A stretch of 24,834 nt of DNA, taken from the NCBI GenBank assembly GCA_028282585.1, contig JANQHR010000166.1:1-24834 (forward strand). The letters run 5' to 3'. This document shows, in pieces, positions 1-22,993 of this stretch. The number at the start of each line of letters is the position of its first letter. The first letter of the stretch is position 1. The translations under genes were made by a program, and so were the position numbers. The notes beneath the pieces were generated by a model. That model saw nothing but the letters and a program-made list of their open reading frames with translations. It did no database searches and had not been told where the DNA came from. The stretch is from Bacteroidales bacterium (lineage in GTDB: Bacteria; Bacteroidota; Bacteroidia; Bacteroidales; UBA12077).

Positions 1-6
1 TTTTTA

Positions 7-103
7 CTTTGAGTAACTTTATGTTTTCTTTGTGGTTCTCTGTTTAACAGCCTTTTATAATTATACCACAAAGTTTCACAAAGCAGGCACAAAGAACACT
101 AAG
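7..103. repeat. Palindromic array of ~10-bp CTTTGTG/CACAAAG units (REP-like element), possibly truncated by the window edge
   Basis: Left half: ctttgag(7), ctttatg(17), ctttgtg(28), ctctgtt(38). Right half, inverted: cacaaag(67,77,88), cactaag(97). ctttgtggt 28-36 is the exact reverse complement of accacaaag 65-73. Confidence 0.6.
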
Positions 104-142
104 ACTTTTTGGACACCCCCTTATAATTATGAATAGTAAACA

Positions 143-2122
143 TTATAATTTTTCAACTGCCATTAAAGGTTGGTCTTTCGAAATTAAAGTTCCATCTTCC
201 ACCAGTATCTTCACAATTTTACATTTATAAGGAGCTTCAATTTCATTGAAAAGTTTCATTGCTTCTAAAATACAAATTGGATCACCTTCTTCAACCACAT
301 CACCTTCCTGAACAAACGCAGGTTTATCTGCTTCGGGTGATTGGTAGAATGTCCCCGCCATAACAGCATTTATAGTTTCTCCGTAAGCTTGCGTATCAAC
401 TTCAGCAGGTTTTTCTTTTGGTTTAGCCGAAGTTTCTACTGCTACTTCATCAGTTTGAGGTTTTACCTCATCATGTATTTCAGGATGCACAGATCCTATT
501 GTAGGTTCTGAAAAAACATGACTTTTAGCACTACCATTTCCAGATCGCATTGAAAGATTGAAATCGCCCTTTCTGATAACCAATTCACTTAACTGCATAT
601 GCGCTGCTTTTTCAAGAATCGTATTCATTCCATTGTAATCTTCCGGATGAAGGAGTGGATCAACGCTGCCAGAAACCTCGGATTTAACTTGTACCTTATC
701 TTCTTCAGGTTCTTTAACTAAATCCTCAATTTCAATATCTGCAGGAGTTTTTGGCCTTTTATCTTCTTCAATTGCTCTCCATTTGAAATATTCCATTGAA
801 ACTTCCGGGAATAAACAATACGATAATATATCTTCTTCGCTTTCGATCAACTTAGGATCCGAAACATTCTTGGTTGCTGTGGGTAAAATAGGTTTTAAAT
901 CATCAGCCGGCCTGTGATCAATAGGTTTCTCATTTCCTAATATTTGTTTAATGAATTTTGGTGCAATAGGAGCTGGTGATCGGCCATACATTCCTTTTAC
1001 ATAATTCTTAACCTCTTGAGGAACTACTTTATATCGTTCACCGGTCAACACATTCATTACAGCTTGCGTTCCAACAATCTGGCTGGTAGGTGTTACCAAT
1101 GGAGGATATCCCAGGTCTTTACGCACATTTGTAACTTCTTCAAGTGCTTCCTCCAATTTCTCGCTGGCATCTTGTTGTTCTAATTGTGAACGGAAGTTAG
1201 AAATCATCCCTCCAGGAATTTGGTGAACTAGAATTTCTGAATCAATAATCGGTTCATATCCTCTGCCTTTCGAACGCTTCGGAGTTAACTCCTTAAAATA
1301 CTTATTTACTTTTCTTAATGCGTCTAAGTCAAGATCAACATTATATTCCGTTTCATCGAAAATAGCATGAATGGTTTCCACCGGAGGTTGAGATGAAAAT
1401 CCGGCCATAGACGAAATAGCACAATCCACAGCACCAGCACCGGCTTTTGCTCCTTCAAAATAAGCTGTTTCTGACATTCCACTGGTAGCATGACAATGTA
1501 CCTGGATTGGTATATCAAATTCTTTCTTTAAAGCAGAAACAAGATTTTTTGATGTTGTAGGTGATAATAATCCAGCCATATCCTTGATGCATAGTGAGTC
1601 GATACCCATTTGTACCTGTTCTTTTGCATCACTTACATATTTTTCAATGGTGTGAACCGGACTAATTGTATATGAAAGAGTTCCTTGAGCATGAGCACCA
1701 TGCTTTTTAACCGCTTTTATCGCAGCTTCCAAGTTTCTTGAATCATTCAAAGCATCAAAGATCCTGAAGATATCAATACCGTTTTGATGCGCCGTTTCTA
1801 CAAAACGATCTACCAAATCATCCGGATAATTTTTATATCCTACAATATTTTGCCCTCTAAGTAACATTTGAAGAGGAGTTTTTTTAGCTTGCGATTTGAT
1901 CAATCGCAACCTTTCCCAAGGATTTTCGCGTAAGAATCGTAAACAAACATCGAAAGTTGCGCCGCCCCATACTTCAAGCGAATAGTATCCAACCTGATCA
2001 ATGGTATCTAAAATACCAAGAATATCTTGTGTACGCATACGAGTTGCCCAAAGTGATTGATGCCCGTCTCGTAATGTAGTATCAGTAATTCTAATTATGT
2101 TCTTTTTCATAACAATATTCAT
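143..2122 (-). CDS. Pyruvate/oxaloacetate carboxyltransferase (PycB/OadA/5S-like) fused to a C-terminal AccB-type biotin carboxyl carrier protein
   Basis: Carboxyltransferase motifs DTTLRDGHQS, EVWGGATFD, LQMLLRGQN, CIKDMAG, HCH, HQIPGGM and YPPLVTPTSQ. C-terminal biotinyl domain MAGTFYQSPEADKPAFV...ILEAMKLFNEI. The start may instead be the ATG at 2110. Confidence 0.93.
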   Translation of the reverse strand: MNIVMKKNIIRITDTTLRDGHQSLWATRMRTQDILGILDTIDQVGYYSLEVWGGATFDVCLRFLRENPWERLRLIKSQAKKTPLQMLLRGQNIVGYKNYPDDLVDRFVETAHQNGIDIFRIFDALNDSRNLEAAIKAVKKHGAHAQGTLSYTISPVHTIEKYVSDAKEQVQMGIDSLCIKDMAGLLSPTTSKNLVSALKKEFDIPIQVHCHATSGMSETAYFEGAKAGAGAVDCAISSMAGFSSQPPVETIHAIFDETEYNVDLDLDALRKVNKYFKELTPKRSKGRGYEPIIDSEILVHQIPGGMISNFRSQLEQQDASEKLEEALEEVTNVRKDLGYPPLVTPTSQIVGTQAVMNVLTGERYKVVPQEVKNYVKGMYGRSPAPIAPKFIKQILGNEKPIDHRPADDLKPILPTATKNVSDPKLIESEEDILSYCLFPEVSMEYFKWRAIEEDKRPKTPADIEIEDLVKEPEEDKVQVKSEVSGSVDPLLHPEDYNGMNTILEKAAHMQLSELVIRKGDFNLSMRSGNGSAKSHVFSEPTIGSVHPEIHDEVKPQTDEVAVETSAKPKEKPAEVDTQAYGETINAVMAGTFYQSPEADKPAFVQEGDVVEEGDPICILEAMKLFNEIEAPYKCKIVKILVEDGTLISKDQPLMAVEKL

Positions 2123-2124
2123 TA

Positions 2125-2997
2125 TTATTTTACTGTGAATTTTCCCATTGCGGAGAATTTTTCAAACCTGCTTTGGATTAATTCTTCAACAGATAATTTT
2201 TGTAATGATTTTATATTTTTAACCACTGCTTTTTCAATTAAGTTGGCTACTTTTTTAACGTCAGTATGCGCCCCTTCACCTGGCTCCTCTATGATTTCAT
2301 CAATTACTCCGTGTTTTTTAAGAGCTTTTGCTGTTAAGTTAAGTGCTTCAGCAGCATCAGGAGCAAAGGCTGCATCACGCCATAAAATCGAAGCACATCC
2401 TTCAGGCGAAATCACAGAATAAATTGCATTTGATAACATCAGAACCTTATCACCAACACCAATTCCTAAAGCTCCACCACTTCCTCCTTCGCCAATTACA
2501 ACGCATACAATAGGTACCTCAATTGATGCCATTTCGGTTAAGTTTTTGGCAATAGCTTCGGCTTGTCCGCGTTCTTCAGCCTCTAATCCGGGGAAAGCAC
2601 CCGGTGTATCAATAAAAGTAATTATAGGTACATTAAATCGCTGTGCTAATTTCATCAAACGTAGAGCTTTTCGGTAGCCATCGGGTTTAGCCATTCCAAA
2701 ATTACGCTCAATATTTTCATGTGTTTTTTTTCCTTTGTTGTGTCCTATAAGCATCACTTTTTGACCATCAATTTCAGCAAAACCTCCAATCATGGCTTTA
2801 TCATCAGAGAAGTATCGGTCTCCATGAAATTCAATAAAGTTTGTTACAATATGTGATATATAGTCTTGTAAAATGGGTCGCTTTGGGTGTCTGCTAATCT
2901 GGACAATTTCCCAGGGTGTTAAATCTTTTTTTGTTTTCTTTTTCATTTTTTCCACCTCTGGTTTCTCCATTACAATACGATCAATTTCTTGTCCCAT
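2125..2997 (-). CDS. accA: Acetyl-CoA carboxylase carboxyltransferase subunit alpha
   Basis: LTPWEIVQISRHPKRP, HGDR..DD, RNFGMAKPDGYRKALRLM, IDTPGAFPG..AEERGQ, GEGGSGGALG, YSVISPEGCASILW. Confidence 0.96.
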   Translation of the reverse strand: MGQEIDRIVMEKPEVEKMKKKTKKDLTPWEIVQISRHPKRPILQDYISHIVTNFIEFHGDRYFSDDKAMIGGFAEIDGQKVMLIGHNKGKKTHENIERNFGMAKPDGYRKALRLMKLAQRFNVPIITFIDTPGAFPGLEAEERGQAEAIAKNLTEMASIEVPIVCVVIGEGGSGGALGIGVGDKVLMLSNAIYSVISPEGCASILWRDAAFAPDAAEALNLTAKALKKHGVIDEIIEEPGEGAHTDVKKVANLIEKAVVKNIKSLQKLSVEELIQSRFEKFSAMGKFTVK

Positions 2998-3037
2998 AAT
3001 TTCTAATTTTAAGATGCGTTTAGGTAATCTTTAATAT

Positions 3038-3868
3038 TTATCGATTATAGTAACTGAGAACGTTGCTTAAATAATCTTTTAAATCTTTACGATTTACGAT
3101 GGAGTCAACGAATCCATGCTCGCGAAGATACTCGGAAGTTTGAAAATCATCCGGAAGTTTTTCCCCGATGGTTTGTTCTATTACTCTTCGTCCTGCAAAG
3201 CCGATTAATGCACCTGGTTCCGACACATTAATATCACCCATCATGGCATAGCTTGCAGAAACTCCACCGGTAGTTGGATTGGTTAGTACTGATATATAAG
3301 GAATATTTTTTCTGTTTAAGCGAGCAATTCCTGCACAGGTCTTGGCCATTTGCATAAGAGATAAAGCGCCTTCCTGCATTCTGGCCCCGCCTGATGCGGA
3401 AATTACAATATACGGTAAATTATGATCATATGCATAATTCGCTGCTTGTAGAATTTTTTCACCAGTTCCGCTACCCAGACTACCACCCAGGAATCTGAAA
3501 TCCATTACGGCAATTACAACCGGTATAGCATTCATCTTTCCGTGTCCGGTAACAACCGCTTCGTTAATTCCTGTTTTCTTGATATTTGTTTCGTACTTAT
3601 CCTTGTAACTTCCTTTCAGATCATTGAATTTAAGCGAATCTTTAGGGCTGATATTACTAAATAGTTCTTCGAAGGTGTCTTTATCGAAAAGCAGATTGAT
3701 TCGTTCGTATGAACTTATGGCCCCGTGATAGTTACAGTTTGGGCAAACGTTAAGGTTTTTACTCCATTCTTCTGCATAAATGTGCGAATGACAATTTTTG
3801 CATTTTACCCAAAGTTCTTTTTTTGATTTTTTCTTTTCTGTTGTAGTTTCAGTATACCAAGCCATCAC
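3038..3868 (-). CDS. accD: Acetyl-CoA carboxylase carboxyltransferase subunit beta
   Basis: Zn finger LWVKCKNC...VCPNC; MDFRFLGGSLGS, SASGGARMQEG..SLMQMAK, PTTGGVSAS, IGFAGRRVIEQT, LPDDFQTSEYL. Start is GTG 3868 or ATG 3865. Confidence 0.96.
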   Translation of the reverse strand: MMAWYTETTTEKKKSKKELWVKCKNCHSHIYAEEWSKNLNVCPNCNYHGAISSYERINLLFDKDTFEELFSNISPKDSLKFNDLKGSYKDKYETNIKKTGINEAVVTGHGKMNAIPVVIAVMDFRFLGGSLGSGTGEKILQAANYAYDHNLPYIVISASGGARMQEGALSLMQMAKTCAGIARLNRKNIPYISVLTNPTTGGVSASYAMMGDINVSEPGALIGFAGRRVIEQTIGEKLPDDFQTSEYLREHGFVDSIVNRKDLKDYLSNVLSYYNR

Positions 3869-4344: not shown

Positions 4345-4381
4345 AAAAGTAAAAAGACTTCTGTTTTAATAGAAGTCCTTT
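4345..4381 (-). terminator. Intrinsic terminator of the receiver-cheW-MCP transcript
   Basis: Stem gacttct 4356-4362 / agaagtc 4371-4377, followed on the minus strand by tttttactttt, about 100 nt after the MCP stop. Confidence 0.75.
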
Positions 4382-4481: not shown

Positions 4482-6536
4482 TTAAAAACTTTCGTATTCC
4501 TTATCAATTTTATCGTTAGAATTAAGTACAATATCTACACCTTTTATCTCTTCATCCGGGCTTTTACTATTTCCGTTATCGGGCTCCTTTTTTACAGCCT
4601 GATACTCTTTTAGAACAGATTTTTTCGTTGTTTTAAAAGAACGACTTTGTTCCCTATCATTAATTTTGAAAAATGCAATGGTTTCCTTTAGTTGCTCAGC
4701 TTGACTGGCCAATTCTTCAGAGCTTGTGGCCATTTCTTCACTTGCCGCTGCATTTTGTTGTGTTACCTGACTTAATTGCTGAATTGCGTTGTTAACTTGG
4801 CCCGCTCCACTACTTTGTTCCATACTGGCCGATGAAATTTCCTGGATTAGATTTGCTGTTTTTTGAATTTCAGGAACCAATTCTTCCATCATTTTTCCGG
4901 CTTCTTCGGTTAAATTCACACTCGATTTTGATAATACATCGATTTCTTCTGCAGCGATTTTACTTCTTTCGGCAAGTTTTCTAACTTCAGCTGCAACTAC
5001 TGCAAAACCTTTTCCGTGTTCCCCTGCGCGTGCAGCTTCAACGGCAGCATTCAGTGCCAGTATATTGGTTTGAAAAGAGATATCTCCAATAATAGTTATC
5101 TTTTCGGCTATTTCTCTAATAGACTTTAAGCTCTCTTTAGATGCTGTTCCAACTTTTTCAACACTGTCTGCTGCTTTTACAGATATCTTTTCTGTTTGCA
5201 GGGCATTGTCATTGTTTTGCTGAATATTTGAAGCCATCTCTTCCATAGATGAGGAAACTTCTTCTGCAGATGAAGCTTGTTCCGAACTCCCTTGTGATAA
5301 TTGTTGTGATGTGGAACTCATTTCAACAGATGCTGATGCAATGTTATTGGCTCCGGAAATAATGTCGTTAACAATTTCTTTAAGTTTAGTGGCCATTGAT
5401 TGTAATGAAATGGCTAACTCTCCAATTTCATCTTTCTGATCTATTTCAACCTGTGCGGTTAAATCCCCTGAGGCAATTAGTTTGGTAAATTTAACACCTT
5501 TTAAAATAGGATTTATGATACCACGGGTAATAACTAATGATAAAATAACGGCAATTACTACCGCAATAAAACTAAATATTAAAACACCGCTGCGGGTTGA
5601 GCTTGTTTCTTCCGACATTTCAAGTTTTTTTACTTCTGCTTCGGTTTTGGCTTTCTCGATTATATCATTAAAAATAGATCCAACGTTTTCTAATGCTACC
5701 CTAGTTTTAGTATTATATATCTCATTAGCTTGGTTCATTCCTTCTATGTTATTATCCTGGTATTTTAGAACTTCATCTAATAAATCCAGTGTTTCATAGG
5801 CATGATTATGTGTATTTTGTGCATAATGGTTATAGGCTCTGTCGTGATTTCCGGCTTTGATATACCGGTCAATTTGAATAGCGCTTTCATGCAATTTCTT
5901 ATGAGGTTCCTCAACTCTTGTAATTAAGGCATTGAAATTAGGATCTTCTTGCCTCAGTTTTTTAACTTCCTCGCTTTCCAGCCATATACCCAGGTTACAT
6001 TTACGATAGTCCGTCTCTACATTTAATTCTCGGCTTTTGCTTAGTAATGCATCTTTAATATTATGCATCCATTGTAAATGGTCACTTTTAACCTCTCGTA
6101 TTTTAGAACCAATCTTAAAATCAGATTGTATAAACACATCGGAAATTTCAATAGCCGATTCATGAAGACGTATGTGAGGTTCTTCAATTTCCTTTAAGAA
6201 TGTTTCTATTTCCGGAATTAGCTTTATTGCTTCTTCTTTTCCTTCTCCATAATACCATTTCCCAAATGCGCATTTGTGGTGGTCCGTTTCTACATTAAGC
6301 TCTTCAACATTAGCATCGGTTAATAATTTATTAACTTCATTGGCCCATTTTAAGTGATCAACATGCCTTTGTTCGATAGTATAAAGTAATTCATCAACTT
6401 CTATTATACTTTCGGAATTTCGAACAATTCCGTTTAGGCCTTTAATGGCCCAAAATGTTACAATAATTAGTATAACAATTACTATTCCAAAGGCTATGGA
6501 CAATTTTTTTCCAAGTTTTATGTCTTTCCAATTCAT
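4482..6536 (-). CDS. Methyl-accepting chemotaxis protein with two extracytoplasmic CZB domains, HAMP and signalling domain
   Basis: TM1 ~aa12-31 and TM2 ~aa317-336. CZB ligands H61/C89/H121/H125 and H153/C180/H212/H216 ([15 protein letters not shown]). HAMP (GDLT...KDEIGELA). Hairpin tip [37 protein letters not shown]. Confidence 0.95.
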
Positions 6537-6608
6537 AATAATATATTTAGTTATTGATTTGTTGCGTTTTAATATTTCAAGTATTTAGTTTTATTTAAGT
6601 ATTATATT

Positions 6609-7106
6609 TTAATTGACTTCATTTATGAATATTGCATCTTTTGATGCGAATACTTTATTCAGATCAAGCAACATGATAAAACGTTCATTAACCTTCCAAA
6701 CACCATTAATGAACTCTGAACGATAATTTGAGCCAATAGATGGAGTAGAATCAATCAGGTCTTCATTAATCTCAAGAACTTCTTTTACGCTATCTACAAT
6801 GGCACCTAACGTTACTTCATCATTTCCGATTTTAACCTGAAGAACCAGAATACAAGTTTCATTCGAAAACTTAAGGTCAGACATTCCGAATATGATTCTC
6901 AGGTCTACAACTGGAAGAGAATTTCCTCTCAAGTTTATTAATCCGCTAAAATAAGCCGGAGATTGAGGGACTTTTGTGGTTTCTGTCATCTCTAGAATGT
7001 TAAATACATTCTTTACATTTGCACCGAATAATTCATTATTTAGCTCGAAGCATAAATAAGTCTCAATGTTGTCAAGATTTCCGGATTCAGCCTTTTTCCT
7101 TTCCAT
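6609..7106 (-). CDS. cheW: Chemotaxis coupling protein CheW
   Basis: YLCFELNNELFG, TKVPQSPAYFSGLINLRGNSLPVVDLR, GAIVDSVKEV, LLDLNKV; adjacent to the MCP gene. Confidence 0.93.
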   Translation of the reverse strand: MERKKAESGNLDNIETYLCFELNNELFGANVKNVFNILEMTETTKVPQSPAYFSGLINLRGNSLPVVDLRIIFGMSDLKFSNETCILVLQVKIGNDEVTLGAIVDSVKEVLEINEDLIDSTPSIGSNYRSEFINGVWKVNERFIMLLDLNKVFASKDAIFINEVN

Positions 7107-7151
7107 ATTATTTTATGTATTTAATTTATTACGTGGTCGATCCTTATAAGG

Positions 7152-7550
7152 TTAATTTTTAATTTTCATATTTTTCGGAAATAAATATTTATTATTAATA
7201 ACTACATCAATAACTTTATCTATTTCATCGAAAACATCTGTTTTAAATATACATGCTCGAAAACCGGCACTCATTATTTCGTCCAGATATGCTTTGTCTC
7301 TATACATGGTTATTGCAATAAATTTAATTTTGCTGTTTTCCCATAGCATCAGTTTAGCTGCCTTTAAACCATCCATTATTGGCATTTCAATATCCATTAG
7401 TACGATTTCAGGAGCATAAGAATTCATTAAATCCAAAGCCTGGCTTCCGTTTTCAGCTTCACATATTATTTCATACTTTTTATTCTTTTCCAGTAAATGT
7501 CTAAGCGCAAGCCTAAAAGATTTATTATCATCTACCAGCATTATTTTCAT
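7152..7550 (-). CDS. Single-domain response regulator (NarL-type receiver lacking the HTH)
   Basis: MKIMLVDD, EAENG, IVLMDIEMPIMDG (phospho-Asp), IAITM, CIFK; ends right after the receiver. ATG 7550 preferred over 7571 because it starts at the first receiver strand. Confidence 0.88.
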   Translation of the reverse strand: MKIMLVDDNKSFRLALRHLLEKNKKYEIICEAENGSQALDLMNSYAPEIVLMDIEMPIMDGLKAAKLMLWENSKIKFIAITMYRDKAYLDEIMSAGFRACIFKTDVFDEIDKVIDVVINNKYLFPKNMKIKN

Positions 7551-7580
7551 GATCGATAATTGGTTAATCATTTCCAGTGA

Positions 7581-7659
7581 TAAATTTATTTCAGAAAACT
7601 GTAATATTTCCGGGTAGGTTTACGGGAATATTTTAAAAAAACACTTGCGTAATTTTACG
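7581..7659 (-). promoter_or_regulatory. Putative regulator-dependent promoter: GTA-N4-TAC boxes plus a Bacteroidota -7-like element
   Basis: GTAGGTTTAC 7614-7623 (inside a 9/10 inverted repeat 7603-7612/7623-7632), CGTAATTTTACG 7648-7659, and minus-strand TAAATTTA at 7588-7581 (TAnnTTTG-like). Confidence 0.5.
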
Positions 7660-7735
7660 TGTAAGTTAATTAGGATATTGACGGAAAGCTAGGGTAGTTA
7701 GTGTTTTAAACAATATTTGGGGTTTTAAAAAGAAT

Positions 7736-8395
7736 TTAGATCTCGATTATTTTATTTTTAAAAGCCTGAACAATAATATTTGCCGTATTTTGAGCATTAA
7801 GTTTATCCATTATTTTAGATTTATGACCTTCAACAGTACGTATAGAGATATATAGTTTTCTGGATATTTCTTTGGTGGTAAGACCGTTACATATTAATTT
7901 TAAAACTTCATTTTCCCGGCTGGTAAAATGAACAGATTTGATTTCTTTTTCAGTTGTAATTTTTTTAGATGTTCCAAAATTAATTATAATGCTTTTCATT
8001 AACTCCGGAGAGAAAAAATCATCCCCTTTGATTACCGTCCGGATAGCTTTTTCTAACTCATCACTACTGGCTTTTTTTAAAACAAAACCTTTGGCTCCGG
8101 CTTGTATCATTTTGTAATAATATGCTTCATCACCATTCATTGATAAGGCAATAATTTTAAGATCAGGATATAATTCCAAAGCTTTTTTTGTGGCTTCAAC
8201 ACCATCTATTTTTGGCATATTAATATCCATTAAAACCACATCCGGTAATTTCGAATCCAGGATGTTTAAAAAAGCCTCTCCATTTTCAGCTTCTGCTATT
8301 ACTTCAATATTCTTTGATTTTGACAAGAGAAAGCTTAAACTTTCTCTAAAAAGATTATGATCGTCAACCAATATTATATTTATCTTATCCTTCAT
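7736..8395 (-). CDS. NarL/FixJ-family DNA-binding response regulator (REC + LuxR HTH)
   Basis: IILVDDH, VVLMDINMPKIDG, GAKGFVLK; C-terminal FTSRENEVLKLICNGLTTKEISRKLYISIRTVEGHKSKIMDKL. Confidence 0.95.
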   Translation of the reverse strand: MKDKINIILVDDHNLFRESLSFLLSKSKNIEVIAEAENGEAFLNILDSKLPDVVLMDINMPKIDGVEATKKALELYPDLKIIALSMNGDEAYYYKMIQAGAKGFVLKKASSDELEKAIRTVIKGDDFFSPELMKSIIINFGTSKKITTEKEIKSVHFTSRENEVLKLICNGLTTKEISRKLYISIRTVEGHKSKIMDKLNAQNTANIIVQAFKNKIIEI

Positions 8396-8418
8396 AAAGC
8401 AATAATAATATAATTAAA

Positions 8419-11106
8419 TCAATAAAGGGTAACTCTCATTTTAACGCTATATCCTTTATTATTACTGCTGCTCATATTTATGTCTCCATTTAAGGATTTT
8501 ATGCGGCTTATTATATTGGATAATCCCATTCCGGTATTTTTACTTAAGGTATCATCAATATTAAATCCTGTTCCATCATCGGCGTAATGCAAAAAAAGAT
8601 TATTTTCTTTATGAACCAGTTTTAAAATTATGGTATTAGCACTGGCATGCTTAAGCGTATTATTAATCAATTCAACAATAATTCTATATAGTGTGGTTTC
8701 AATTTTTTCGGAAACCCTTATCTCAAAGTTAGATCCTAATGCGAATTTAATAGAGCTGGTATCTGTTATTTTTTTATAAAATGATTCTACTGCCGTTGTT
8801 AATCCAAAATTTTTTAATATGTGTGGACTAAGGTTATTTGATATTTCCTGAACTCCAAGTATTGCATCATCAATGGTTTCCTCAAGTTTTTTAATTATTT
8901 GCATTTTTTCTTCGGTATTTTCACTTAACTGGAATGATTTTGAGTAGATTTTAGCAGCAGATAATAAAGGTCCAAGCCCATCATGAAGATCTTTAGCAAA
9001 TCTTTCTTTTTCTCGTTCTTCTGTTTCGATAACTGCAGTAAGGATTTTTCTTTCTGTTTCTTTTCTTTCGGAAATATCTCTTATCATTGTTAAAACAGCT
9101 TTTTTGTTTTCATAATCTATTATCTTGCTGCTTATTTCTATGGAAATGATATCTCCGGAAGCCTTGTAAGTTTCTATTTCTATGGGCGTTAAAGATTCGC
9201 CATTGTACAAAGCACTTATTCTTTGTTTTAAGATGTCGGTATATTTGGGAGGTACGTGTTCAATGATTTCTTTACTAAATAAATATTCCTTTTTAAAACC
9301 TAATAGATTTATTAAAGTTTCGTTTATAGCTAAGATCTTATATTTATCGTTAAAAATGATTATTCCGTCGCTACTCGAATTAAATAAATTCCGGAATTTA
9401 CGTTCACTTTCGAATAAGGCCTTTTCGGTTTTTTTTCTTAAGGTGATATCCTCTGCCCAGCCTTCATAATATAAGACCTCACCGTTACTATTTTTAATCA
9501 CCTGGGCGCTTTCATTAATGTCAATGGAAGAACCGTCCTTTTTTATATATTGAGTTTCATAGCCATGTATTACTCCTTTTTGATTGATCATACTTTTAAA
9601 TTCTGACCGGGGATATATTCTTTCATCCAGATCTTTTTCAAGATTAATTTTTTGAAGCTCTTTAAGGTTGGAATAACCTAACATTTTTAACAAAGCAGGA
9701 TTGGCCATTAATACTTTACCGCCAGGAGTTGTTCTGTATATTCCAAGGGTAGAGTTCTCGTACAAAGTACGGTACTCTTCTTCACTTTTCTGCATATTCT
9801 TAAATAATAATAATGATGATAAAGAGTCTTCAATTCGCCGGCCTATTTCATTAAATAATTGTATTTCATCATTTGTCCATTTTCTGGCATAAGAACATTG
9901 ATGCATGCCTAGTCCCCATGGTTTGCCTATTTTGGGATAAATGGCCATTACCAGTTGTGATAAAACATTAAATTCTTTGGCTAATTCAGGGTATATTTTA
10001 TGTTTCTCTTCGGGACCAAAAGGAACAGGTAATTCACTACCTAATGCTACTTTACAAACCTTGTCAGCACCAGGCTTCATAGGAATATCTTCATTTAACT
10101 GGAATGCGCCTGGATATTCCTGGTTGTTAAGCTCTGTTTCAATCTTAAAGGTAGGAGCATCAGGATCGCAGGGGTATAATAACCAAATTCGGTCGCATTT
10201 AAAAATTGACAGAGAAGTTTTTAAAACATCCCATAACATTTGATTTACATTATTAGATTTTTGAATGATCTTGTTTACTTGATTAATATTTTTTAAGAAA
10301 TTCAGATATGCTTTCCTTTGCTTTTCAGCCTGTTTTTGTTCGGTTATATCAAGTACAGAAAAAGTAACTCCTTCGGAGAGGTCTTTAATATTAATAGGAG
10401 ATGAGCTTAATAATACATCGATTATTTGCCCGTCTTTACATAACCACTTTGTTTCGATACTTCCAATGCGATGTTTCTTTATTTGGGAATACTTAACTTT
10501 CCCTACTCTTTCAAACTCTTCATTTGAAGGGTAAATTATTCGGGCACTTTTATTAATAAGTTCTTTTTTAGAATAACCTGTTAACTCACATATTCTTTTA
10601 TTTACATTTATAAATACTCTGTCCTTAACAACACCTATTCCAATTGGTGCTGCACGGAAAATACTCTTCATTCCGGCTTCACTTATTTTTAGCTTAGCTT
10701 CAGATTTTTTACGAGCAGTAATATCACGGTCAATGCCTCTAAATCCCAGAAAGTTACCTTTAATGTCAAAAAAGGGTACTCCACTTGTTTCAAGAATAAC
10801 CTTTTTCCCGTTTTTATGTAAATTAGTATTTTCCAGGTTGAAAAAAGGTTTTTTAGATGTAATTAAGCTGAAAAACTTATTGGCAATTTTACTTGCTTCT
10901 TCCGTTGGCATAAAATCAAACGGAGTTTTCCCGATGATTTGTTCCGGATTATAACCAAGTAAATCTTTTACCTTTGAGCTGGAAAATGTATAAACACCTT
11001 CCGTATTCACTTCCCAAATCCAGTCACTGGTTATTTCAACTAAATTGCGAAACTTCTCCTCACTTTTTTTTAATTTCTCTTTAGTTTTTTTTTCGTTTTC
11101 ACTCAT
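8419..11106 (-). CDS. Cytoplasmic multi-PAS/GAF sensor histidine kinase (HisKA_3, NarX/UhpB class)
   Basis: Four PAS/PAC repeats ending RDIT/LDIT/EDIT/RDIS with a central GAF-like region (KPWGLGMHQCSYARKWT). H-box EREKERFAKDLHDGLGPLL; ELINNTLKHA, DDGTGF, GMGLSNI. No TM segment seen. Confidence 0.93.
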   Translation of the reverse strand: MSENEKKTKEKLKKSEEKFRNLVEITSDWIWEVNTEGVYTFSSSKVKDLLGYNPEQIIGKTPFDFMPTEEASKIANKFFSLITSKKPFFNLENTNLHKNGKKVILETSGVPFFDIKGNFLGFRGIDRDITARKKSEAKLKISEAGMKSIFRAAPIGIGVVKDRVFINVNKRICELTGYSKKELINKSARIIYPSNEEFERVGKVKYSQIKKHRIGSIETKWLCKDGQIIDVLLSSSPINIKDLSEGVTFSVLDITEQKQAEKQRKAYLNFLKNINQVNKIIQKSNNVNQMLWDVLKTSLSIFKCDRIWLLYPCDPDAPTFKIETELNNQEYPGAFQLNEDIPMKPGADKVCKVALGSELPVPFGPEEKHKIYPELAKEFNVLSQLVMAIYPKIGKPWGLGMHQCSYARKWTNDEIQLFNEIGRRIEDSLSSLLLFKNMQKSEEEYRTLYENSTLGIYRTTPGGKVLMANPALLKMLGYSNLKELQKINLEKDLDERIYPRSEFKSMINQKGVIHGYETQYIKKDGSSIDINESAQVIKNSNGEVLYYEGWAEDITLRKKTEKALFESERKFRNLFNSSSDGIIIFNDKYKILAINETLINLLGFKKEYLFSKEIIEHVPPKYTDILKQRISALYNGESLTPIEIETYKASGDIISIEISSKIIDYENKKAVLTMIRDISERKETERKILTAVIETEEREKERFAKDLHDGLGPLLSAAKIYSKSFQLSENTEEKMQIIKKLEETIDDAILGVQEISNNLSPHILKNFGLTTAVESFYKKITDTSSIKFALGSNFEIRVSEKIETTLYRIIVELINNTLKHASANTIILKLVHKENNLFLHYADDGTGFNIDDTLSKNTGMGLSNIISRIKSLNGDINMSSSNNKGYSVKMRVTLY

Positions 11107-12266: not shown

Positions 12267-12839
12267 ATGAAAGATTACGATCTTGTTGAACGTATTAAGA
12301 ATCAAGATGAATCAGCTTTTAAGGAATTAGTAGAAAGTTACCAAGATATGGTAATAAATTCCTGTTATGGTTTATTACATGATTATAACGAAGCCGAAGA
12401 CGTCGCTCAGGATGTTTTTGTAGAAGTATACGAGTCAATTCATAAATTTAGGGGAGATTCGAAAATTTCTACATGGTTGTATCGTATTGCCATTAATAAA
12501 TCAATAAATACTACAAAAAAAAATAAATTAAGAAAATTCTTTATTAAAATTGAGGACGCATTTAATGGTGTTGAAACCAGAAATTATGAGAAATCAGATG
12601 ATATAAACTCTAAACCTCTGCAAAGATTAGAATCCATTGAAAACAAAGCAATAATAAAGAACGCGATAGATCATTTACCAAGCAATCAAAAAATCGCATT
12701 TACTTTACATAAATACGAAGATGTTTCTTATAAAGAAATTGCGGAAATAATGGATCTTTCTCTAAGTTCGGTGGAATCTCTTATATTTAGAGCAAAACAG
12801 AACCTTAAGAAAAAATTAGTTCAATATTTTATAAAATAA
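12267..12839 (+). CDS. ECF RNA polymerase sigma-70 factor
   Basis: Region 2: AEDVAQDVFV...FRGDSKISTWLYRIAIN. Region 4: LPSNQKIAFTL...SYKEIAEIMDLSLSSVESLIFRAKQNL. Confidence 0.95.
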   Translation: MKDYDLVERIKNQDESAFKELVESYQDMVINSCYGLLHDYNEAEDVAQDVFVEVYESIHKFRGDSKISTWLYRIAINKSINTTKKNKLRKFFIKIEDAFNGVETRNYEKSDDINSKPLQRLESIENKAIIKNAIDHLPSNQKIAFTLHKYEDVSYKEIAEIMDLSLSSVESLIFRAKQNLKKKLVQYFIK

Positions 12840-12848
12840 TAGTTGAAA

Positions 12849-13361
12849 ATGAAGAAGCTAAATAACTATATAAGTAAGTTAAATATCATTTTGTTGGTTG
12901 CCAATCTAACCATATTTGGTGCAATATATTTGAGTCATTCCGGATTTCATTCCGAAAAAAATTTGAATTATCAAACCAATACAGACGAATTTATTAAAAA
13001 AGAACTCGGGTTCTCTGAGGAGCAATATGAAGAATATCTGGCTCTTAACGAAAAAGTGATGAAAGGATATAAGAGAAATGAAGAACTTACATGCATAAAT
13101 CATTATGGTTTTCTTCTTGAATTGTCAAAGCCTGAGCCTTCGCTTACCAAGTTGGATTCAATTAGTCGTGCAAACGGTCGGCTTCATACGGGACTGAAAG
13201 TATTCACCGCAAGACATTTTTTAAATATAATGTCGATATGTACTCAAGAACAGGAAATAAAATTTCAACAATTAATTAAAGAAATGTTGCAGATTGGTGC
13301 GTGTGAAGATTGTACCGATCCAAATTGTCCGCATGAATCTGATGTTCACAGAATTAAATAA
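12849..13361 (+). CDS. Membrane-anchored Spy/CpxP/ZraP-like helical periplasmic protein with Cys/His-rich tail
   Basis: N-terminal hydrophobic helix (IILLVANLTIFGAIYL); LTxxQ-like motifs ELGFSEEQ and SICTQEQ; tail CEDCTDPNCPHESDVH. ATG 12849 preferred over TTG 12843. Confidence 0.7.
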   Translation: MKKLNNYISKLNIILLVANLTIFGAIYLSHSGFHSEKNLNYQTNTDEFIKKELGFSEEQYEEYLALNEKVMKGYKRNEELTCINHYGFLLELSKPEPSLTKLDSISRANGRLHTGLKVFTARHFLNIMSICTQEQEIKFQQLIKEMLQIGACEDCTDPNCPHESDVHRIK

Positions 13362-13385
13362 AAGTTAATTTTTTTTAAATTTTTG

Positions 13386-13414
13386 CGCAAGTTTTTTAAA
13401 AAATTGTTGTCTTA
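13386..13414 (+). promoter_or_regulatory. Second putative ECF promoter (GCAAG-N16-TGTCT) upstream of the anti-sigma gene
   Basis: cGCAAGttttttaaaaaattgtTGTCTta; as for the first copy, 22 nt separate TGTCT from the ATG. Confidence 0.7.
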
Positions 13415-13434
13415 ATGTTAAAAGGATTTGAAAA

Positions 13435-13863
13435 ATGAACTGTAAGGATTTTTTAAAAGAAATAACAAAAGGTAAATTGAATTCGAACCTAGGTCATATT
13501 GAATTTTGTGAAAACTGTAAGGAGATTCTTTTAAATATCGATAAACAAATTGAAGAGGTTGGAAAGGATAAATTAACCGAAACCAACCCTTTTTTTTATA
13601 CAAAAGTAAAACAGCGACTTGAAAATAGACAGATTAAACCATTTTATAATAAACAATTTATTATTCGCTTAGGGAACGTATCATCACTCGTCATAACAGG
13701 GATGTTTTTGGGGCTTTTATTTTTTAAGCAATTTGGAGGAGGTATTCAAATTCCTCCTGGTAAAGAAAATAGAAGGGAGCAAATTATCGAAAATATGATG
13801 AATGATCATTTTCTGATTAATAAGTCAAAATCAATTTCGTTATTTGACTCAGAGTCAGAATAA
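13435..13863 (+). CDS. Probable zinc-binding (ZAS) transmembrane anti-sigma factor
   Basis: MNC at the N-terminus, HxxxCxxC (HIEFCENC), NPFFYTKV linker, single TM helix (SLVITGMFLGLLFF); close to the ECF sigma gene. Confidence 0.82.
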   Translation: MNCKDFLKEITKGKLNSNLGHIEFCENCKEILLNIDKQIEEVGKDKLTETNPFFYTKVKQRLENRQIKPFYNKQFIIRLGNVSSLVITGMFLGLLFFKQFGGGIQIPPGKENRREQIIENMMNDHFLINKSKSISLFDSESE

Positions 13864-13948
13864 CCTAGCAAACGAGTCTTTAATTAAAACAGATTAAAAA
13901 TTTTTAAACGAAGTGATTTTTCACTTTGCAGGAAAGCTATATACTATT

Positions 13949-15910: not shown

Positions 15911-15912
15911 AA

Positions 15913-18486: not shown

Positions 18487-18490
18487 TACT

Positions 18491-18529
18491 AAATCCCTTT
18501 GGAACATGTTTCCAAAGGGATTTTTTCTT
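18491..18529 (+). terminator. Strong hairpin plus T tract between the protease gene and susC
   Basis: 14-bp perfect arms aaatccctttggaa 18491-18504 / ttccaaagggattt 18510-18523, then tttctt. Confidence 0.8.
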
Positions 18530-18542
18530 AATCGAAGGGACT

Positions 18543-21500: not shown

Positions 21501-21554
21501 CATGCATATCCAATGTCCAGAACTTATTCAATAGGTATAAAATTTAATTTCTAA
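18543..21554 (+). CDS. susC: SusC/RagA-family TonB-dependent outer-membrane transporter
   Basis: Signal peptide, N-terminal extension (LPGVSVRVKGT), LDEVVVVGY, plug (EPLYILDGVP; INPEDIESITVLKDASASAIYGANASNGVIIITTKKG), LKIRGSYG, NPHLTWEKT, C-terminal YP..RTYSIGIKFNF. Family-level symbol only. Confidence 0.96.
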   Translation: MKKTILTLFLLFTSVLFSIAQVHIVEGTVKDDIGVTLPGVSVRVKGTQIGTITDNDGKYRIRLPIANKTLIFSFVGMTTQEIKPQGNILNVTMQTDSKQLDEVVVVGYAGVKTKESIVGSVEQVKAKDLMVERPIESIDKMLDGMMTGVRVEENTGDPGAPVSIRIRGQSSLTQIASNAVVASSEPLYILDGVPLYDVSAPNDVDNMGDVKINPLALINPEDIESITVLKDASASAIYGANASNGVIIITTKKGEKGDTKFSLSSSTGISEPLSEFKYLNSQQYIELATEAINNSDFSETQKQDEIAALGSPDVNTNWFDLVSRTGVVYKNNLVFSGGGDSHVYRFSLNHLKNKSIGIGNQLERVTSTLKVNSDLNEKLSWDYKVGVSYLKKDVFNSFESISFAPTLSPYKEDGSFNDEPPFDRRMNPMAGIEQNEAWNKHLYVNGSTELLYKIVEGLDFRTAFGVDFDNGENYAYYSSENGSGYTRGGYITKSTKNNLKWISTSQLSYHKMLANHQISLLGGFEITDREQTYLRGTNSNLPFEKILELGISEKEDASVSSSKSSIGSISYFGKFEYNYKSKYYFSYSIRNDQASVFGGDSQKDNFSSYGASWIISKEDWFKDLTLPVTFLKIRGSYGSTGNSRIGTYAAYGLYQYDDSYMYDGLIGAQPYTAPNPHLTWEKTYKFNAALDFRLYDKVNFTVAHYINKTEGAISNLKIPMETGFSTVPVNVADMENSGWEFSASSTIINKEDFNWNASFNISTNKNIVTKLGNENPQFADLNYSSLGLFVGEDVNVILALRYAGVNPETGEAQYYLADGSITTDRSEANQMENREFVGNSTPDASGGFSTSIDYRNFTLSTALSFDIGGYVMLPWNSYLYSSDGEQILVHNQNVNQLDRWQEPGDITDIPQLSINNKPIKNTTRNLYDRTNIDVKYIALSYRVPKNIVEKIKLNQASISLNVNNIWTWYKVDKDVASDRNGLNELLHAYPMSRTYSIGIKFNF

Positions 21555-21559
21555 GAGTT

Positions 21560-22975: not shown

Positions 22976-22993
22976 ACCCTAATATATCTTACT

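What the first reader, a model, noticed from the sequence alone, without database searches (positions are those of the whole stretch)
143..3868. accD-accA operon with a keto-acid carboxyltransferase-AccB fusion and no accC: candidate ATP-independent malonyl-CoA-forming transcarboxylase
Seen: three tightly packed co-oriented genes (gaps of 40 and 2 nt) encode AccD, AccA and a PycB/OadA-type carboxyltransferase with a biotin carrier. No biotin carboxylase (accC/pycA) or Na+-pump subunit (oadB/oadG) is present, and a repeat element follows the last gene. Known: the Propionibacterium transcarboxylase couples a keto-acid CT (5S), a biotin carrier (1.3S) and an acyl-CoA CT (12S) without ATP. Inference: this operon builds the same logic from E. 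coli-type ACC parts, giving oxaloacetate + acetyl-CoA <-> pyruvate + malonyl-CoA. Alternative: a distant AccC loads this one carrier for both pyruvate and acetyl-CoA carboxylation.
Basis: partly seen in the sequence, partly recalled or inferred. Interest (0 to 1): 0.85.

Follow-up and report, generated by a model that had tools for sequence, protein, structure and literature searches.

The report
Biotin-carboxylase-free malonyl-CoA transcarboxylase operon
Three adjacent genes look like an acetyl-CoA carboxylase whose ATP-using part has been replaced by an oxaloacetate-handling part fused to the biotin carrier, which would let these anaerobic bacteria make the fatty-acid building block malonyl-CoA without spending ATP.

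Summary
On the minus strand lie accD (3038-3868), accA (2125-2997) and a 659-aa fusion (143-2122), with gaps of 40 and 2 nt. The fusion joins a PycB/OadA/5S-type keto-acid carboxyltransferase to a near-full-length AccB. A dispersed ~120-bp repeat follows, and the contig ends in it.

- **Own genome:** it holds one biotin carboxylase (BC) domain, inside a methylcrotonyl-CoA-carboxylase-like cluster. It has no accC and no free accB.
- **Same genus:** the operon is in 27 of 37 genomes. Eight of those 27, one of them closed, show no BC (five re-checked with BC domain models). Five checked genomes (four BC-free, plus the window's own) keep FabD and PEPCK.
- **Selection:** dN/dS is 0.03-0.14, also between two BC-free genomes.
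- **Metagenome loci:** in a scan of 80 loci, 49 of 55 informative accD-accA pairs are followed by the same carboxyltransferase. It is fused to AccB in 36 of 36 loci where both parts are visible. No locus holds a BC.
- **Neighbours:** PEPCK is the upstream neighbour in 10 of 33 loci.

Best reading (about 0.7): oxaloacetate + acetyl-CoA gives pyruvate + malonyl-CoA. This chemistry is known from a fused protist enzyme and from the Propionibacterium transcarboxylase. I found no report of this bacterial operon form. It is a new variant of a known kind.

The parts
3038..3868 (-). accD, the carboxyltransferase beta subunit (276 aa), with a four-Cys zinc ribbon. The listed start is GTG at 3868; an in-frame ATG lies at 3865.
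   Evidence: TIGR00515 381 bits, above the cut-off of 317; PF17848 and PF01039. Sequence read.
2125..2997 (-). accA, the carboxyltransferase alpha subunit (290 aa). It starts about 40 residues into the TIGR00513 model.
   Evidence: NF004344 449 bits, above 357; TIGR00513 423 bits, above 319; PF03255 445 bits.
143..2122 (-). Fusion gene (659 aa plus stop): keto-acid carboxyltransferase joined to a near-full-length AccB-type biotin carrier.
   Evidence: PRK09282 793 bits; PF00682, PF02436 and PF00364; TIGR00531 101 bits over residues 500-658. PDB alignments.
743..2122 (-). Residues 1-460 of the fusion: PycB/OadA/5S-type carboxyltransferase domain. Motifs are DTTLRDGHQS (residues 14-23), KDMAG (K180) and HCH (H209, H211).
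   Evidence: Aligns over residues 10-449 to 5ks8_C (PycB), 2nx9_A (OadA) and 1rqb_A (5S). Motifs kept in 116, 118 and 94 of 118 homologues. The catalytic roles of these residues are recalled from the 5S and pyruvate carboxylase structure papers, not tested here.
503..637 (-). Residues 496-540: segment like the AccB N-terminal domain. Its core, residues 511-530, is about 80% conserved.
   Evidence: TIGR00531 match starts at model position 7. 4hr7_B residues 27-176 align to query 500-657. Conservation profile.
383..502 (-). Residues 541-580: hypervariable Pro/Ala/Glu/Lys-rich flexible linker.
   Evidence: Mean identity 0.16 and gap fraction 0.28 among 118 homologues.
146..382 (-). Residues 581-659: AccB-type biotinyl domain with the thumb-like SPEADKPAF stretch. 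The predicted biotinyl-lysine is K623 in EAMKL (codon 254-256).
   Evidence: PF00364 67 bits. Aligns to 1bdo, 3bdo and 4hr7. EAMKL is present in 118 of 118 homologues.
1..120 (.). Copy of a dispersed ~120-bp intergenic repeat. The contig ends inside it.
   Evidence: blastn against the genome finds more than 30 further copies at 88-100% identity, many at contig ends.
3869..4351 (-). Intergenic region upstream of accD, the presumed promoter region. It lies downstream of a terminator-like hairpin (4352-4381) that follows the chemoreceptor gene.
   Evidence: Sequence; hairpin. Sigma-70-type promoter matches are not above chance (14 found, 15.7 expected), and that scan does not cover Bacteroidota promoters.

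Best explanation
AccD, AccA and the fusion protein form an ATP-independent biotin transcarboxylase.

Proposed cycle:
1. The 5S/PycB-type domain of the fusion takes the carboxyl group from oxaloacetate and puts it on the biotin of its own C-terminal AccB-type carrier, releasing pyruvate.
2. The carrier swings on its flexible linker to the AccD/AccA carboxyltransferase.
3. AccD/AccA passes the carboxyl to acetyl-CoA, giving malonyl-CoA for type II fatty-acid synthesis.

Oxaloacetate comes from PEP carboxykinase (PEP + CO2 + ADP gives oxaloacetate + ATP). Carboxylation then costs no ATP, saving one ATP per malonyl-CoA relative to AccABCD.

Shown: the gene content, the fusion, conserved motifs, the absence of BC, the conservation and the gene neighbourhoods.

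Inferred: that the three proteins assemble, the substrates, and the direction of flux.
For: **Architecture.** A keto-acid carboxyltransferase is fused to an AccB-type carrier, not to the 1.3S/OadA type. It lies 2 nt after accA. The nearest unfused relatives in the order (54-55% identity) are a 1.3S/MmdC-type carrier of 121-124 aa plus a carboxyltransferase-only protein of 511-521 aa. The carrier type was thus exchanged for the one AccD/AccA uses.

**No BC in the window's genome.** G000 has one BC domain only, in a methylcrotonyl-CoA-carboxylase-like cluster with a carboxyltransferase beta subunit, an enoyl-CoA hydratase and an acyl-CoA dehydrogenase. It has no free AccB.

**Genus level.** The fusion is in 27 of 37 genomes, with accA adjacent. 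Eight of the 27 have no BC at E <= 1e-30: G106 (closed), G176, G188, G193, G194, G200, G201 and G202. Five of five tested (G106, G176, G201, G193, G200) have no PF02785 or PF00289 hit above cut-off.

**Malonyl-CoA demand and oxaloacetate supply.** FabD is over cut-off in 5 of 5 genomes, and PEPCK is present in 5 of 5. The five are G000, G106, G176, G201 and G193.

**A separate ATP-dependent enzyme where BC exists.** Where a ~504-aa BC is present, the two loci examined (L105, L106) place it in its own carboxyltransferase(518)-BC(504)-BCCP(177) operon. Eight of 10 fusion-negative genomes of the genus have a BC of that size. This is the pattern expected of two interchangeable malonyl-CoA sources.

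**Repeated loss of BC.** All three genes are present in 25 of 25 loci fetched. On the operon tree, absence of the ~500-aa BC needs 6 changes.

**Purifying selection.** dN/dS is 0.03-0.14, including between G106 and G193, which both lack BC.

**Metagenome loci (80).** Sixty-six have accD plus accA. Forty-nine of the 55 with room downstream have the carboxyltransferase directly downstream. Carboxyltransferase and AccB are in one frame in 36 of 36. None of the 80 has a BC hit. GC ranges from 0.31 to 0.72, so many lineages are involved.

**PEPCK as neighbour.** It is the immediate upstream neighbour in 10 of 33 module loci: 6 GTP-type co-directional and 4 ATP-type divergent. It is also adjacent in G193, G201 and G176.

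[quoted passage not shown] The P. freudenreichii enzyme is used for the same reaction (passages in PMC12502205).
Against: - No biochemical, genetic or expression data exist for any member. No RNA run is listed.
- Sixteen of 27 operon-bearing genomes of the genus also carry a ~500-aa BC, and two more have partial BC hits. G000 has a methylcrotonyl-CoA-carboxylase-type BC. Loading in trans is therefore not excluded there.
- In G198 and G184 the separate carboxyltransferase-BC-BCCP operon lies only about 10-12 kb from the operon on the same contig.
- Most genomes are MAGs. Four of the eight BC-free ones are only 90-94% complete, so some 'losses' may be assembly gaps.
- G181 (93% complete) has neither a BC nor the operon. 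Another malonyl-CoA source, or a gap, must exist there.
- The AccB N-terminal-like segment binds AccC in E. coli (recalled). It is conserved here, and its role without AccC is unexplained.
- BC-free genomes also carry a 12S-like carboxyltransferase plus a small carrier, and a diverged OadA-like protein. These could in principle also make malonyl-CoA.
- Six of 55 accD-accA loci with room downstream lack the carboxyltransferase.
Confidence: 0.72

Rival explanations
1. A shared carrier for two ATP-dependent carboxylases. A biotin carboxylase encoded elsewhere carboxylates the fused AccB domain. Candidates are the ~504-aa BC of the carboxyltransferase-BC-BCCP operon or, in this genome, the methylcrotonyl-CoA-carboxylase-type BC-BCCP. 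The carboxybiotin then serves either the pyruvate carboxyltransferase (pyruvate carboxylase activity) or AccD/AccA (acetyl-CoA carboxylase activity).
For: Sixteen of 27 operon-bearing genomes of the genus have a ~500-aa BC, and G000 has a 660-aa BC-BCCP. The fusion keeps a conserved AccB N-terminal-like segment, which in E. coli mediates AccC binding (recalled). Annotation pipelines name the protein 'pyruvate carboxylase subunit B'.
Against: Eight of 27 operon-bearing genomes, one of them closed, show no BC (five re-checked with BC domain models). Two of them compared (G106, G193) keep all three genes under purifying selection. The BCs that exist come with their own carrier and carboxyltransferase in their own operons. 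None of 80 metagenome loci and none of 7 flanked genome loci has a BC beside the operon.
Confidence: 0.12
2. The complex works mainly in the opposite or a decarboxylating direction. One form is malonyl-CoA + pyruvate giving acetyl-CoA + oxaloacetate, for malonate use or anaplerosis. Another is carboxybiotin handed to the membrane MmdB/OadB-type subunit to drive Na+ export, or loaded from it by reversal.
For: Transcarboxylation is close to equilibrium (established for EC 2.1.3.1). AccD/AccA homologues (MadC/MadD) act in the decarboxylating direction in Malonomonas malonate decarboxylase (recalled). The genome has one Na+-decarboxylase beta subunit.
Against: BC-free genomes need malonyl-CoA (FabD in the 4 BC-free genomes tested), and no other dedicated source is evident. 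The only beta subunit lies in the methylmalonyl-CoA decarboxylase cluster with its own carrier. No OadG, OadB or malonate genes lie near the operon in the 7 flanked genome loci examined. In the 80 metagenome loci I looked only for BC, PEPCK and PPDK by tblastn and family-scanned eight recurrent neighbours. The TIGR01108 oadA score (717 bits) is below its cut-off of 756.5. The recurrent neighbour is PEPCK, an oxaloacetate producer.
Confidence: 0.08
3. The transcarboxylase logic is the same but the substrates differ. The donor or acceptor could be another 2-oxo acid (for example 2-oxoglutarate/oxalosuccinate, as with CfiB-type enzymes), or another acyl-CoA such as propionyl-CoA.
For: Sequence alone cannot fix substrate specificity. 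The carboxyltransferase domain scores similarly against the PycB, OadA and 5S models.
Against: AccD and AccA pass the equivalog cut-offs of the acetyl-CoA-specific models. The best structural relatives of the carboxyltransferase domain all act on pyruvate/oxaloacetate. PEPCK and PPDK adjacency points to the PEP-pyruvate-oxaloacetate node.
Confidence: 0.08

Closest known systems
Fused 'ACCT/PycB' malonyl-CoA:pyruvate transcarboxylase of anaerobic protists (Entamoeba histolytica, Giardia, Mastigamoeba, retortamonads, Monocercomonoides)
   Same: The proposed reaction is the same (oxaloacetate + acetyl-CoA giving pyruvate + malonyl-CoA). So is the domain logic: an ACC-type carboxyltransferase, a PycB-type carboxyltransferase and a biotin carrier, with no biotin carboxylase. 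The role is also the same, supplying malonyl-CoA in anaerobes that lack a conventional ACC (passages read in PMC8136499, PMC7985675 and PMC12308965).
   Different: The protist enzyme is one polypeptide, while here there are three genes, with only the PycB-type carboxyltransferase and the carrier fused. I could not obtain a protist sequence through the tools, so homology and relatedness are untested. No single-chain form appeared among the best 120 longer homologues of the fusion or of AccA, nor among the best 150 cluster representatives. The primary papers (Jordan et al. 2003; Barbosa-Cabrera et al. 2012) are not held.
Propionibacterium freudenreichii methylmalonyl-CoA:pyruvate transcarboxylase (12S/5S/1.3S, EC 2.1.3.1)
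   Same: It is an ATP-independent biotin enzyme that couples a 5S-type keto-acid carboxyltransferase to an acyl-CoA carboxyltransferase through a carrier. The 5S subunit (1rqb) aligns to residues 9-464 of the fusion at E 2e-130. It is reported to interconvert acetyl-CoA + oxaloacetate and malonyl-CoA + pyruvate, and is used for that in engineering (PMC12502205, passages).
   Different: Its acyl-CoA carboxyltransferase is a single-chain 12S protein, not split AccD/AccA. Its carrier is a free 1.3S protein, not an AccB fused to the 5S-type domain. Its physiological substrate is methylmalonyl-CoA.
Heteromeric acetyl-CoA carboxylase AccABCD
   Same: AccD and AccA pass the equivalog cut-offs. The carrier is AccB-type, with the N-terminal segment, a flexible linker, the thumb-like stretch and an MK(L) biotinylation motif.
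   Different: There is no AccC in the genome, and AccB is not free but fused to a keto-acid carboxyltransferase. The sister genus has the canonical form, with a 447-467-aa accC about 1 kb from accA and no fusion.
Two-subunit pyruvate carboxylase (PycA/PycB) and the Na+-pumping oxaloacetate decarboxylase alpha subunit (OadA)
   Same: These are the best sequence and structure matches of residues 10-449 (5ks8_C and 2nx9_A). Public annotation uses these names.
   Different: There is no PycA partner and no OadB or OadG partner in the operon. The carrier is of AccB type. The equivalog scores fall below cut-off (TIGR01108 717 against 756.5; PRK14041 631 against 734).

Membership tests
Heteromeric acetyl-CoA carboxylase (AccABCD) | AccD and AccA carboxyltransferase subunits | tested here: met
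   TIGR00515 381 bits (cut-off 317); TIGR00513 423 bits (cut-off 319); NF004344 449 bits (cut-off 357).
Heteromeric acetyl-CoA carboxylase (AccABCD) | AccB-type biotin carboxyl carrier | tested here: inconclusive
   It is present only as the C-terminal part of the fusion. TIGR00531 gives 101 bits, under the cut-off of 115, but covers model positions 7-156 of 156. It aligns to E. coli AccB 4hr7_B.
Heteromeric acetyl-CoA carboxylase (AccABCD) | AccC biotin carboxylase subunit encoded in the genome | tested here: not met
   The only BC domain in G000 is a 660-aa BC-BCCP in a methylcrotonyl-CoA-carboxylase-like cluster; TIGR00514 gives 561 bits, under the cut-off of 626.5. Five related genomes, one of them closed, have no BC domain.
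Biotin transcarboxylase (EC 2.1.3.1 type, 12S/5S/1.3S) | 5S-type keto-acid carboxyltransferase with conserved active-site motifs | tested here: met
   1rqb_A aligns at E 2e-130 over residues 9-464. DTTLRDGHQS, KDMAG and HCH are present, and are kept in 116, 118 and 94 of 118 homologues.
Biotin transcarboxylase (EC 2.1.3.1 type, 12S/5S/1.3S) | 12S-type single-chain acyl-CoA carboxyltransferase and a free 1.3S carrier | tested here: not met
   The acyl-CoA carboxyltransferase is split AccD/AccA, and the carrier is AccB-type and fused.
Biotin transcarboxylase (EC 2.1.3.1 type, 12S/5S/1.3S) | Works without biotin carboxylase and without ATP | not testable with these tools
   Absence of BC is shown genomically. 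The activity needs an assay.
Two-subunit pyruvate carboxylase (PycA/PycB) | PycA (BC) partner subunit | tested here: not met
   There is no free BC in G000. None of 80 homologous loci has a BC nearby.
Na+-translocating oxaloacetate decarboxylase (OadABG) | OadA at equivalog level, with OadB and OadG partners | tested here: not met
   TIGR01108 gives 717 bits, under the cut-off of 756.5. The single OAD_beta gene of the genome lies in the methylmalonyl-CoA decarboxylase cluster on contig C49.
Protist fused ACCT/PycB transcarboxylase | ACC-type carboxyltransferase, PycB-type carboxyltransferase and carrier, with no BC | tested here: met
   The domain content of the operon matches. The description of the protist enzyme comes from passages in PMC8136499 and PMC12308965.
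Protist fused ACCT/PycB transcarboxylase | Single polypeptide; sequence relatedness to the protist proteins | tested here: inconclusive
   The single-polypeptide feature is not met: here there are three genes. Sequence relatedness could not be tested, because no protist sequence could be obtained. No single-chain form was found among the best hits.

The most novel reading that the evidence does not exclude
The accD-accA-(carboxyltransferase-AccB) module is the sole malonyl-CoA source of many anaerobic bacteria in several lineages (contig GC 0.31-0.72). It couples PEPCK-driven CO2 fixation directly to lipid synthesis at zero ATP cost, and has repeatedly displaced ATP-dependent acyl-CoA carboxylases. 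It is also the prokaryotic progenitor of the fused ACCT/PycB transcarboxylase of Entamoeba, Giardia and other anaerobic protists, formed by fusion of the whole operon after lateral transfer. The three proteins sum to 1225 aa, close to the about 138 kDa that I recall for the Entamoeba enzyme.
Probability: 0.3. Interest if true: 0.85.

Novelty: new variant of a known kind. Interest (0 to 1): 0.74.

Why it matters
Malonyl-CoA formation by ATP-dependent acetyl-CoA carboxylase is treated as the universal committed step of bacterial fatty-acid synthesis, and as a drug and engineering target. If this operon works as proposed, a sizeable group of fermentative anaerobes makes malonyl-CoA without ATP. 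This includes Bacteroidales and, judging by contigs of 31-72% GC, other lineages. They would do so by passing on the carboxyl group that PEPCK fixed, and some have dispensed with biotin carboxylase altogether.

- **Annotation:** genes now named 'pyruvate carboxylase subunit B' or 'oxaloacetate decarboxylase alpha' next to 'ACC carboxyltransferase' would be corrected. So would metabolic models that infer pyruvate carboxylase or a broken ACC.
- **Engineering:** it would offer a compact natural three-gene part for ATP-free malonyl-CoA supply. That aim is currently pursued with the Propionibacterium enzyme (PMC12502205, passages read).
- **Evolution:** it would provide a candidate bacterial counterpart for the protist transcarboxylase.

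The claim is directly testable with three recombinant proteins.

Tried and rejected
- **Expression:** no RNA holder is listed. The only full holder, X1, is DNA and may be the source sample.
- **Single-chain forms:** the 120 best longer homologues of the fusion are pyruvate carboxylases with BC, one OadA-OadB fusion and two proteins (P0121, P0122) carrying only the keto-acid carboxyltransferase domains. None has an ACC-type carboxyltransferase. The 120 best longer homologues of AccA include many entries of 540-600 aa carrying both AccD- and AccA-type domains (PF01039, PF03255). None has a PycB domain.
- **Cluster representatives:** the one long candidate among the 150 listed (P0367, 1115 aa) is a duplicated keto-acid carboxyltransferase.
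- **Genome-collection scan:** the fusion as query mostly picked up ordinary Bacteroidota AccB genes through the MKLFNEIE pattern. Only 3 of 80 loci carried the fusion.
- **Clean deletion of the BC operon in G000:** neither the operon of L105 nor its flanking genes have close counterparts in the assembly, so absence cannot be told apart from a variable or unassembled region.
- **Promoter scan:** sigma-70 matches are at chance level, 14 found against 15.7 expected.
- **Literature:** nine accepted searches found no report of a bacterial accD-accA-carboxyltransferase/AccB transcarboxylase. A review of the PEP-pyruvate-oxaloacetate node has no occurrence of 'transcarboxylase' or 'malonyl' (PMC8100219, term search only). 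Jordan et al. 2003 and Barbosa-Cabrera et al. 2012 are not held and may bear on novelty. Supplements were not consulted.
- **Not run:** Complex prediction and structure prediction. A carrier-enzyme pair would likely pass by likeness to solved ACC structures and would not separate the hypotheses.

Full report
**1. Observation**

The window is an entire 24,834-bp contig (C104) of a 4.89-Mb, 173-contig assembly rated 98.35% complete. Three minus-strand ORFs lie at 3038-3868, 2125-2997 and 143-2122, separated by 40 and 2 nt.

- NCBIfam places the first two above the equivalog cut-offs for AccD and AccA. AccD also carries the zinc-ribbon domain.
- The third protein (659 aa) has a PycB/OadA/5S-type carboxyltransferase at residues 9-480.
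- Its residues 500-658 match the AccB model from position 7 to the end. They also match E. coli AccB chain 4hr7_B residues 27-176.
- The fusion therefore carries an essentially complete AccB: an N-terminal-like segment, a hypervariable Pro/Ala/Glu-rich linker and a biotinyl domain with EAMKL.
- Carboxyltransferase residues 10-449 align with the solved PycB (5ks8_C), OadA (2nx9_A) and 5S (1rqb_A) chains. The motifs DTTLRDGHQS, KDMAG and HCH are kept. Their catalytic roles are recalled, not tested.
- The first 120 bases of the window are a copy of a dispersed repeat with more than 30 copies, many at contig ends. This explains why the contig stops there.
- The other window genes encode a chemoreceptor, CheW, response regulators, a PAS histidine kinase, an ECF sigma factor and a SusC/SusD pair. 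None is a BC or an OadB.

The nearest homologues of the fusion that carry a name are labelled Bacteroidales or Bacteroidota.

**2. Is a biotin carboxylase hidden elsewhere?**

In the window's own genome, Biotin_carb_C and the accC model find one BC only. It is part of a 660-aa BC-BCCP protein. That protein sits between a 535-aa carboxyltransferase, an enoyl-CoA hydratase and an acyl-CoA dehydrogenase, which is a methylcrotonyl-CoA-carboxylase-like cluster.

- The best AccB match in the genome is the fusion itself.
- The other biotin loci are a methylmalonyl-CoA decarboxylase Na+ pump, a 12S-like carboxyltransferase with a 124-aa carrier, and a diverged OadA-like protein.
- In seven homologous genome loci with flanks (L021, L022, L023, L106, L107, L108, L111), accD-accA-fusion is conserved.
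- Their flanking genes differ: a histidine kinase, a radical-SAM protein, PPDK, a phosphate-binding protein, a glycosyltransferase or PEPCK. None has a BC next to the operon.

**3. Co-occurrence in the family**

Fifty-six genomes of the family were searched.

- The fusion occurs in 27 of 37 genomes of the window's genus and in 0 of 19 genomes of the other genera. accA lies beside it.
- Thirteen of the 16 genomes of the sister genus have a canonical accC of 447-467 aa scoring above cut-off. Where accA is on the same contig it lies about 1 kb away.
- Within the window's genus, BC hits are of two kinds. One is a frame of about 500 aa that scores below the accC cut-off. The other is a 664-676-aa methylcrotonyl-CoA-carboxylase-type protein.
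- In the two loci examined, the ~500-aa BC sits in its own carboxyltransferase(518)-BC(504)-BCCP(177) operon, a complete separate acyl-CoA carboxylase.

Counts among the 27 operon-bearing genomes:

| BC status | Genomes |
|---|---|
| ~500-aa BC present | 16 |
| Only contig-cut BC pieces | 2 |
| Only the methylcrotonyl-CoA-carboxylase type | 1 (G000) |
| No BC at E <= 1e-30 | 8 |

- The eight with no BC are G106 (closed, single contig), G176 and G201 (both rated 100% complete), G193 (98%), G200, G194, G188 and G202 (90-94%).
- Five of these were re-searched with the two BC-specific Pfam domains at E <= 1, and none reached the cut-off.
- FabD (over cut-off) and PEPCK are present in all five genomes tested (G000, G106, G176, G201, G193).
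- Of the 10 fusion-negative genomes of the genus, 8 have the ~500-aa BC.
- The two exceptions are G204 (77% complete, with accA at a contig end) and G181 (93% complete, with neither).
- On a maximum-likelihood tree of the concatenated three proteins from 25 loci, all three genes being present in each, lack of the ~500-aa BC requires 6 changes. Either the ATP-dependent enzyme was lost repeatedly where the operon is present, or some MAGs have gaps.
- dN/dS is 0.03-0.14 for all three genes, including between two BC-free genomes. dS is near saturation, so the values are rough.

**4. Breadth**

- An order-wide sample of 151 genomes from 148 families showed the full-length fusion in three genomes from two families. 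In G032, the one from a second family, accA is adjacent and the only BC is a 675-aa frame.
- The protein database holds at least 120 clusters at 70% identity or more.
- A metagenome scan seeded with an AccD/AccA relative (P0241) gave 80 loci.
- Sixty-six of them have accD plus accA. Of 55 with at least 400 nt after accA, 49 have the keto-acid carboxyltransferase directly downstream, at 65-88% identity to the window's.
- In all 36 loci where both the carboxyltransferase and the AccB part are visible, they are in one open frame. None of the 80 loci gives a BC hit.
- These contigs range from 31% to 72% GC, so the module is not confined to one lineage. AMKL is kept in 34 of 36.
- Among 33 module loci with at least 1.8 kb upstream, PEPCK is the immediate neighbour in 10. 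Six have a GTP-type enzyme, co-directional, ending roughly 75-140 nt before accD. Four have an ATP-type enzyme, divergent.
- The ATP-type PEPCK is also divergently adjacent in G193, G201 and G176.
- PPDK lies convergently downstream in L021 and in three metagenome loci.

Two different PEPCK types (ATP- and GTP-dependent) recurring next to the module tie it to oxaloacetate supply.

**5. Mechanism**

The most economical reading is a transcarboxylase.

1. The 5S-type domain moves the carboxyl of oxaloacetate to the biotin of its own AccB-type carrier.
2. AccD/AccA moves it on to acetyl-CoA.

The closest unfused relatives pair a carboxyltransferase-only protein with a 1.3S/MmdC-type carrier. The carrier here is instead the type that AccD/AccA uses, which fits that reading. 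With PEPCK making oxaloacetate and ATP from PEP, malonyl-CoA costs no ATP. This last point is an inference from established stoichiometries.

Three things remain unexplained:
- why the AccB N-terminal-like segment is conserved in the absence of AccC;
- what the other BC-free biotin proteins do (the 12S-like carboxyltransferase with its small carrier, and the diverged OadA-like protein);
- genome G181.

**6. Comparison with what is known**

- The reaction is reported for a fused transcarboxylase of Entamoeba, with orthologues or putative equivalents in Mastigamoeba, Giardia, retortamonads and Monocercomonoides (passages read in PMC8136499, PMC7985675 and PMC12308965).
- It is also reported for the Propionibacterium 12S/5S/1.3S enzyme when used in engineering (PMC12502205, passages).
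- A survey of biotin carboxylases set transcarboxylase-like bacterial homologues aside (PMC3199775, passages).
- I found no description of the bacterial accD-accA-carboxyltransferase/AccB operon in nine full-text searches. Two primary papers on the protist enzyme are not held.

By membership tests the system is not a canonical ACC (no AccC). It is not a PycAB pyruvate carboxylase (no PycA) and not an OadABG pump (no OadB or OadG, and below cut-off). It is not a 12S/5S/1.3S transcarboxylase in composition. It works like the last of these and like the protist enzyme.

**7. Verdict**

It is a new variant of a known kind. The finding is of high interest because it is widespread, mis-annotated and decisively testable with three recombinant proteins.

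Noticed in passing
window 1-120; further copies for example at G000 C8:47204-47323, C146:31406-31525 and C49:108325-108444: A ~120-bp dispersed intergenic repeat with more than 30 copies at 88-100% identity. Many copies sit exactly at contig ends, so it appears to be a main cause of assembly breaks in this genome. Its nature (MITE or REP-like) was not determined.
   Followed up: partly
window 4482-11106 (minus strand): A chemotaxis-like signalling cluster in a Bacteroidales-type genome. It holds a methyl-accepting chemoreceptor with CZB zinc-binding and HAMP domains, CheW, a single-domain response regulator, a LuxR-type response regulator and a multi-PAS HisKA_3 histidine kinase. From recall, such genes are uncommon in Bacteroidota.
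   Followed up: no
window 12267-24538 (plus strand): An ECF sigma factor is followed by two small ORFs without family matches and a 4Fe-4S protein. Then come a DUF4953 Met-zincin, a SusC-like TonB receptor, a SusD-like protein and a Calx-beta protein. This looks like a PUL-like locus, possibly for a proteinaceous substrate.
   Followed up: no
G000 C77:24263-26197 (L103 5263-7197) and C105:43895-45640 (L104 4896-6641): A 12S/MmdA-like carboxyltransferase (515 aa) with a 124-aa biotin carrier and no BC. Elsewhere lies a diverged OadA/5S-like protein (581 aa) with a biotin domain, next to methylglyoxal synthase. The closed BC-free genome G106 has biotin-domain frames of similar size (138 and 586 aa). 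They may form a classical methylmalonyl-CoA:pyruvate transcarboxylase, or a second route to malonyl-CoA.
   Followed up: partly
G000 C101:54139-62832 (L101 4140-12833): The genome's only BC lies in a cluster of HydE-like radical SAM protein, carboxyltransferase beta (535 aa), enoyl-CoA hydratase, BC-BCCP (660 aa), a 609-aa protein with no NCBIfam match at E <= 1e-10, and an acyl-CoA dehydrogenase. This is a methylcrotonyl-CoA-carboxylase-like set in an apparent anaerobe.
   Followed up: no
G000 C97:3920-4744 and C124:104252-105097: FabD-like acyltransferase domains sit inside very long open frames (1830 and 3350 aa). This suggests polyketide or PUFA-type synthases, which would add to the malonyl-CoA demand.
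   Followed up: no
window 2125-2997; compare the coordinates: AccA of this genus starts about 35-50 positions into the TIGR00513 model (frames of about 290 aa). AccA of the sister genus, which has a canonical accC, starts at position 14 (frames of about 350 aa) and scores lower. Among longer proteins searched (>= 509 aa), the best AccA matches are 55-66% identical; those carrying a name are labelled Kiritimatiellae, Lentisphaerae or Cloacimonadota. This hints that the accD-accA pair was acquired laterally.
   Followed up: partly
P0367 (1115 aa): A protein with two tandem keto-acid carboxyltransferase units (HMGL-like plus PYC_OADA, twice) and no biotin or BC domain.
   Followed up: no
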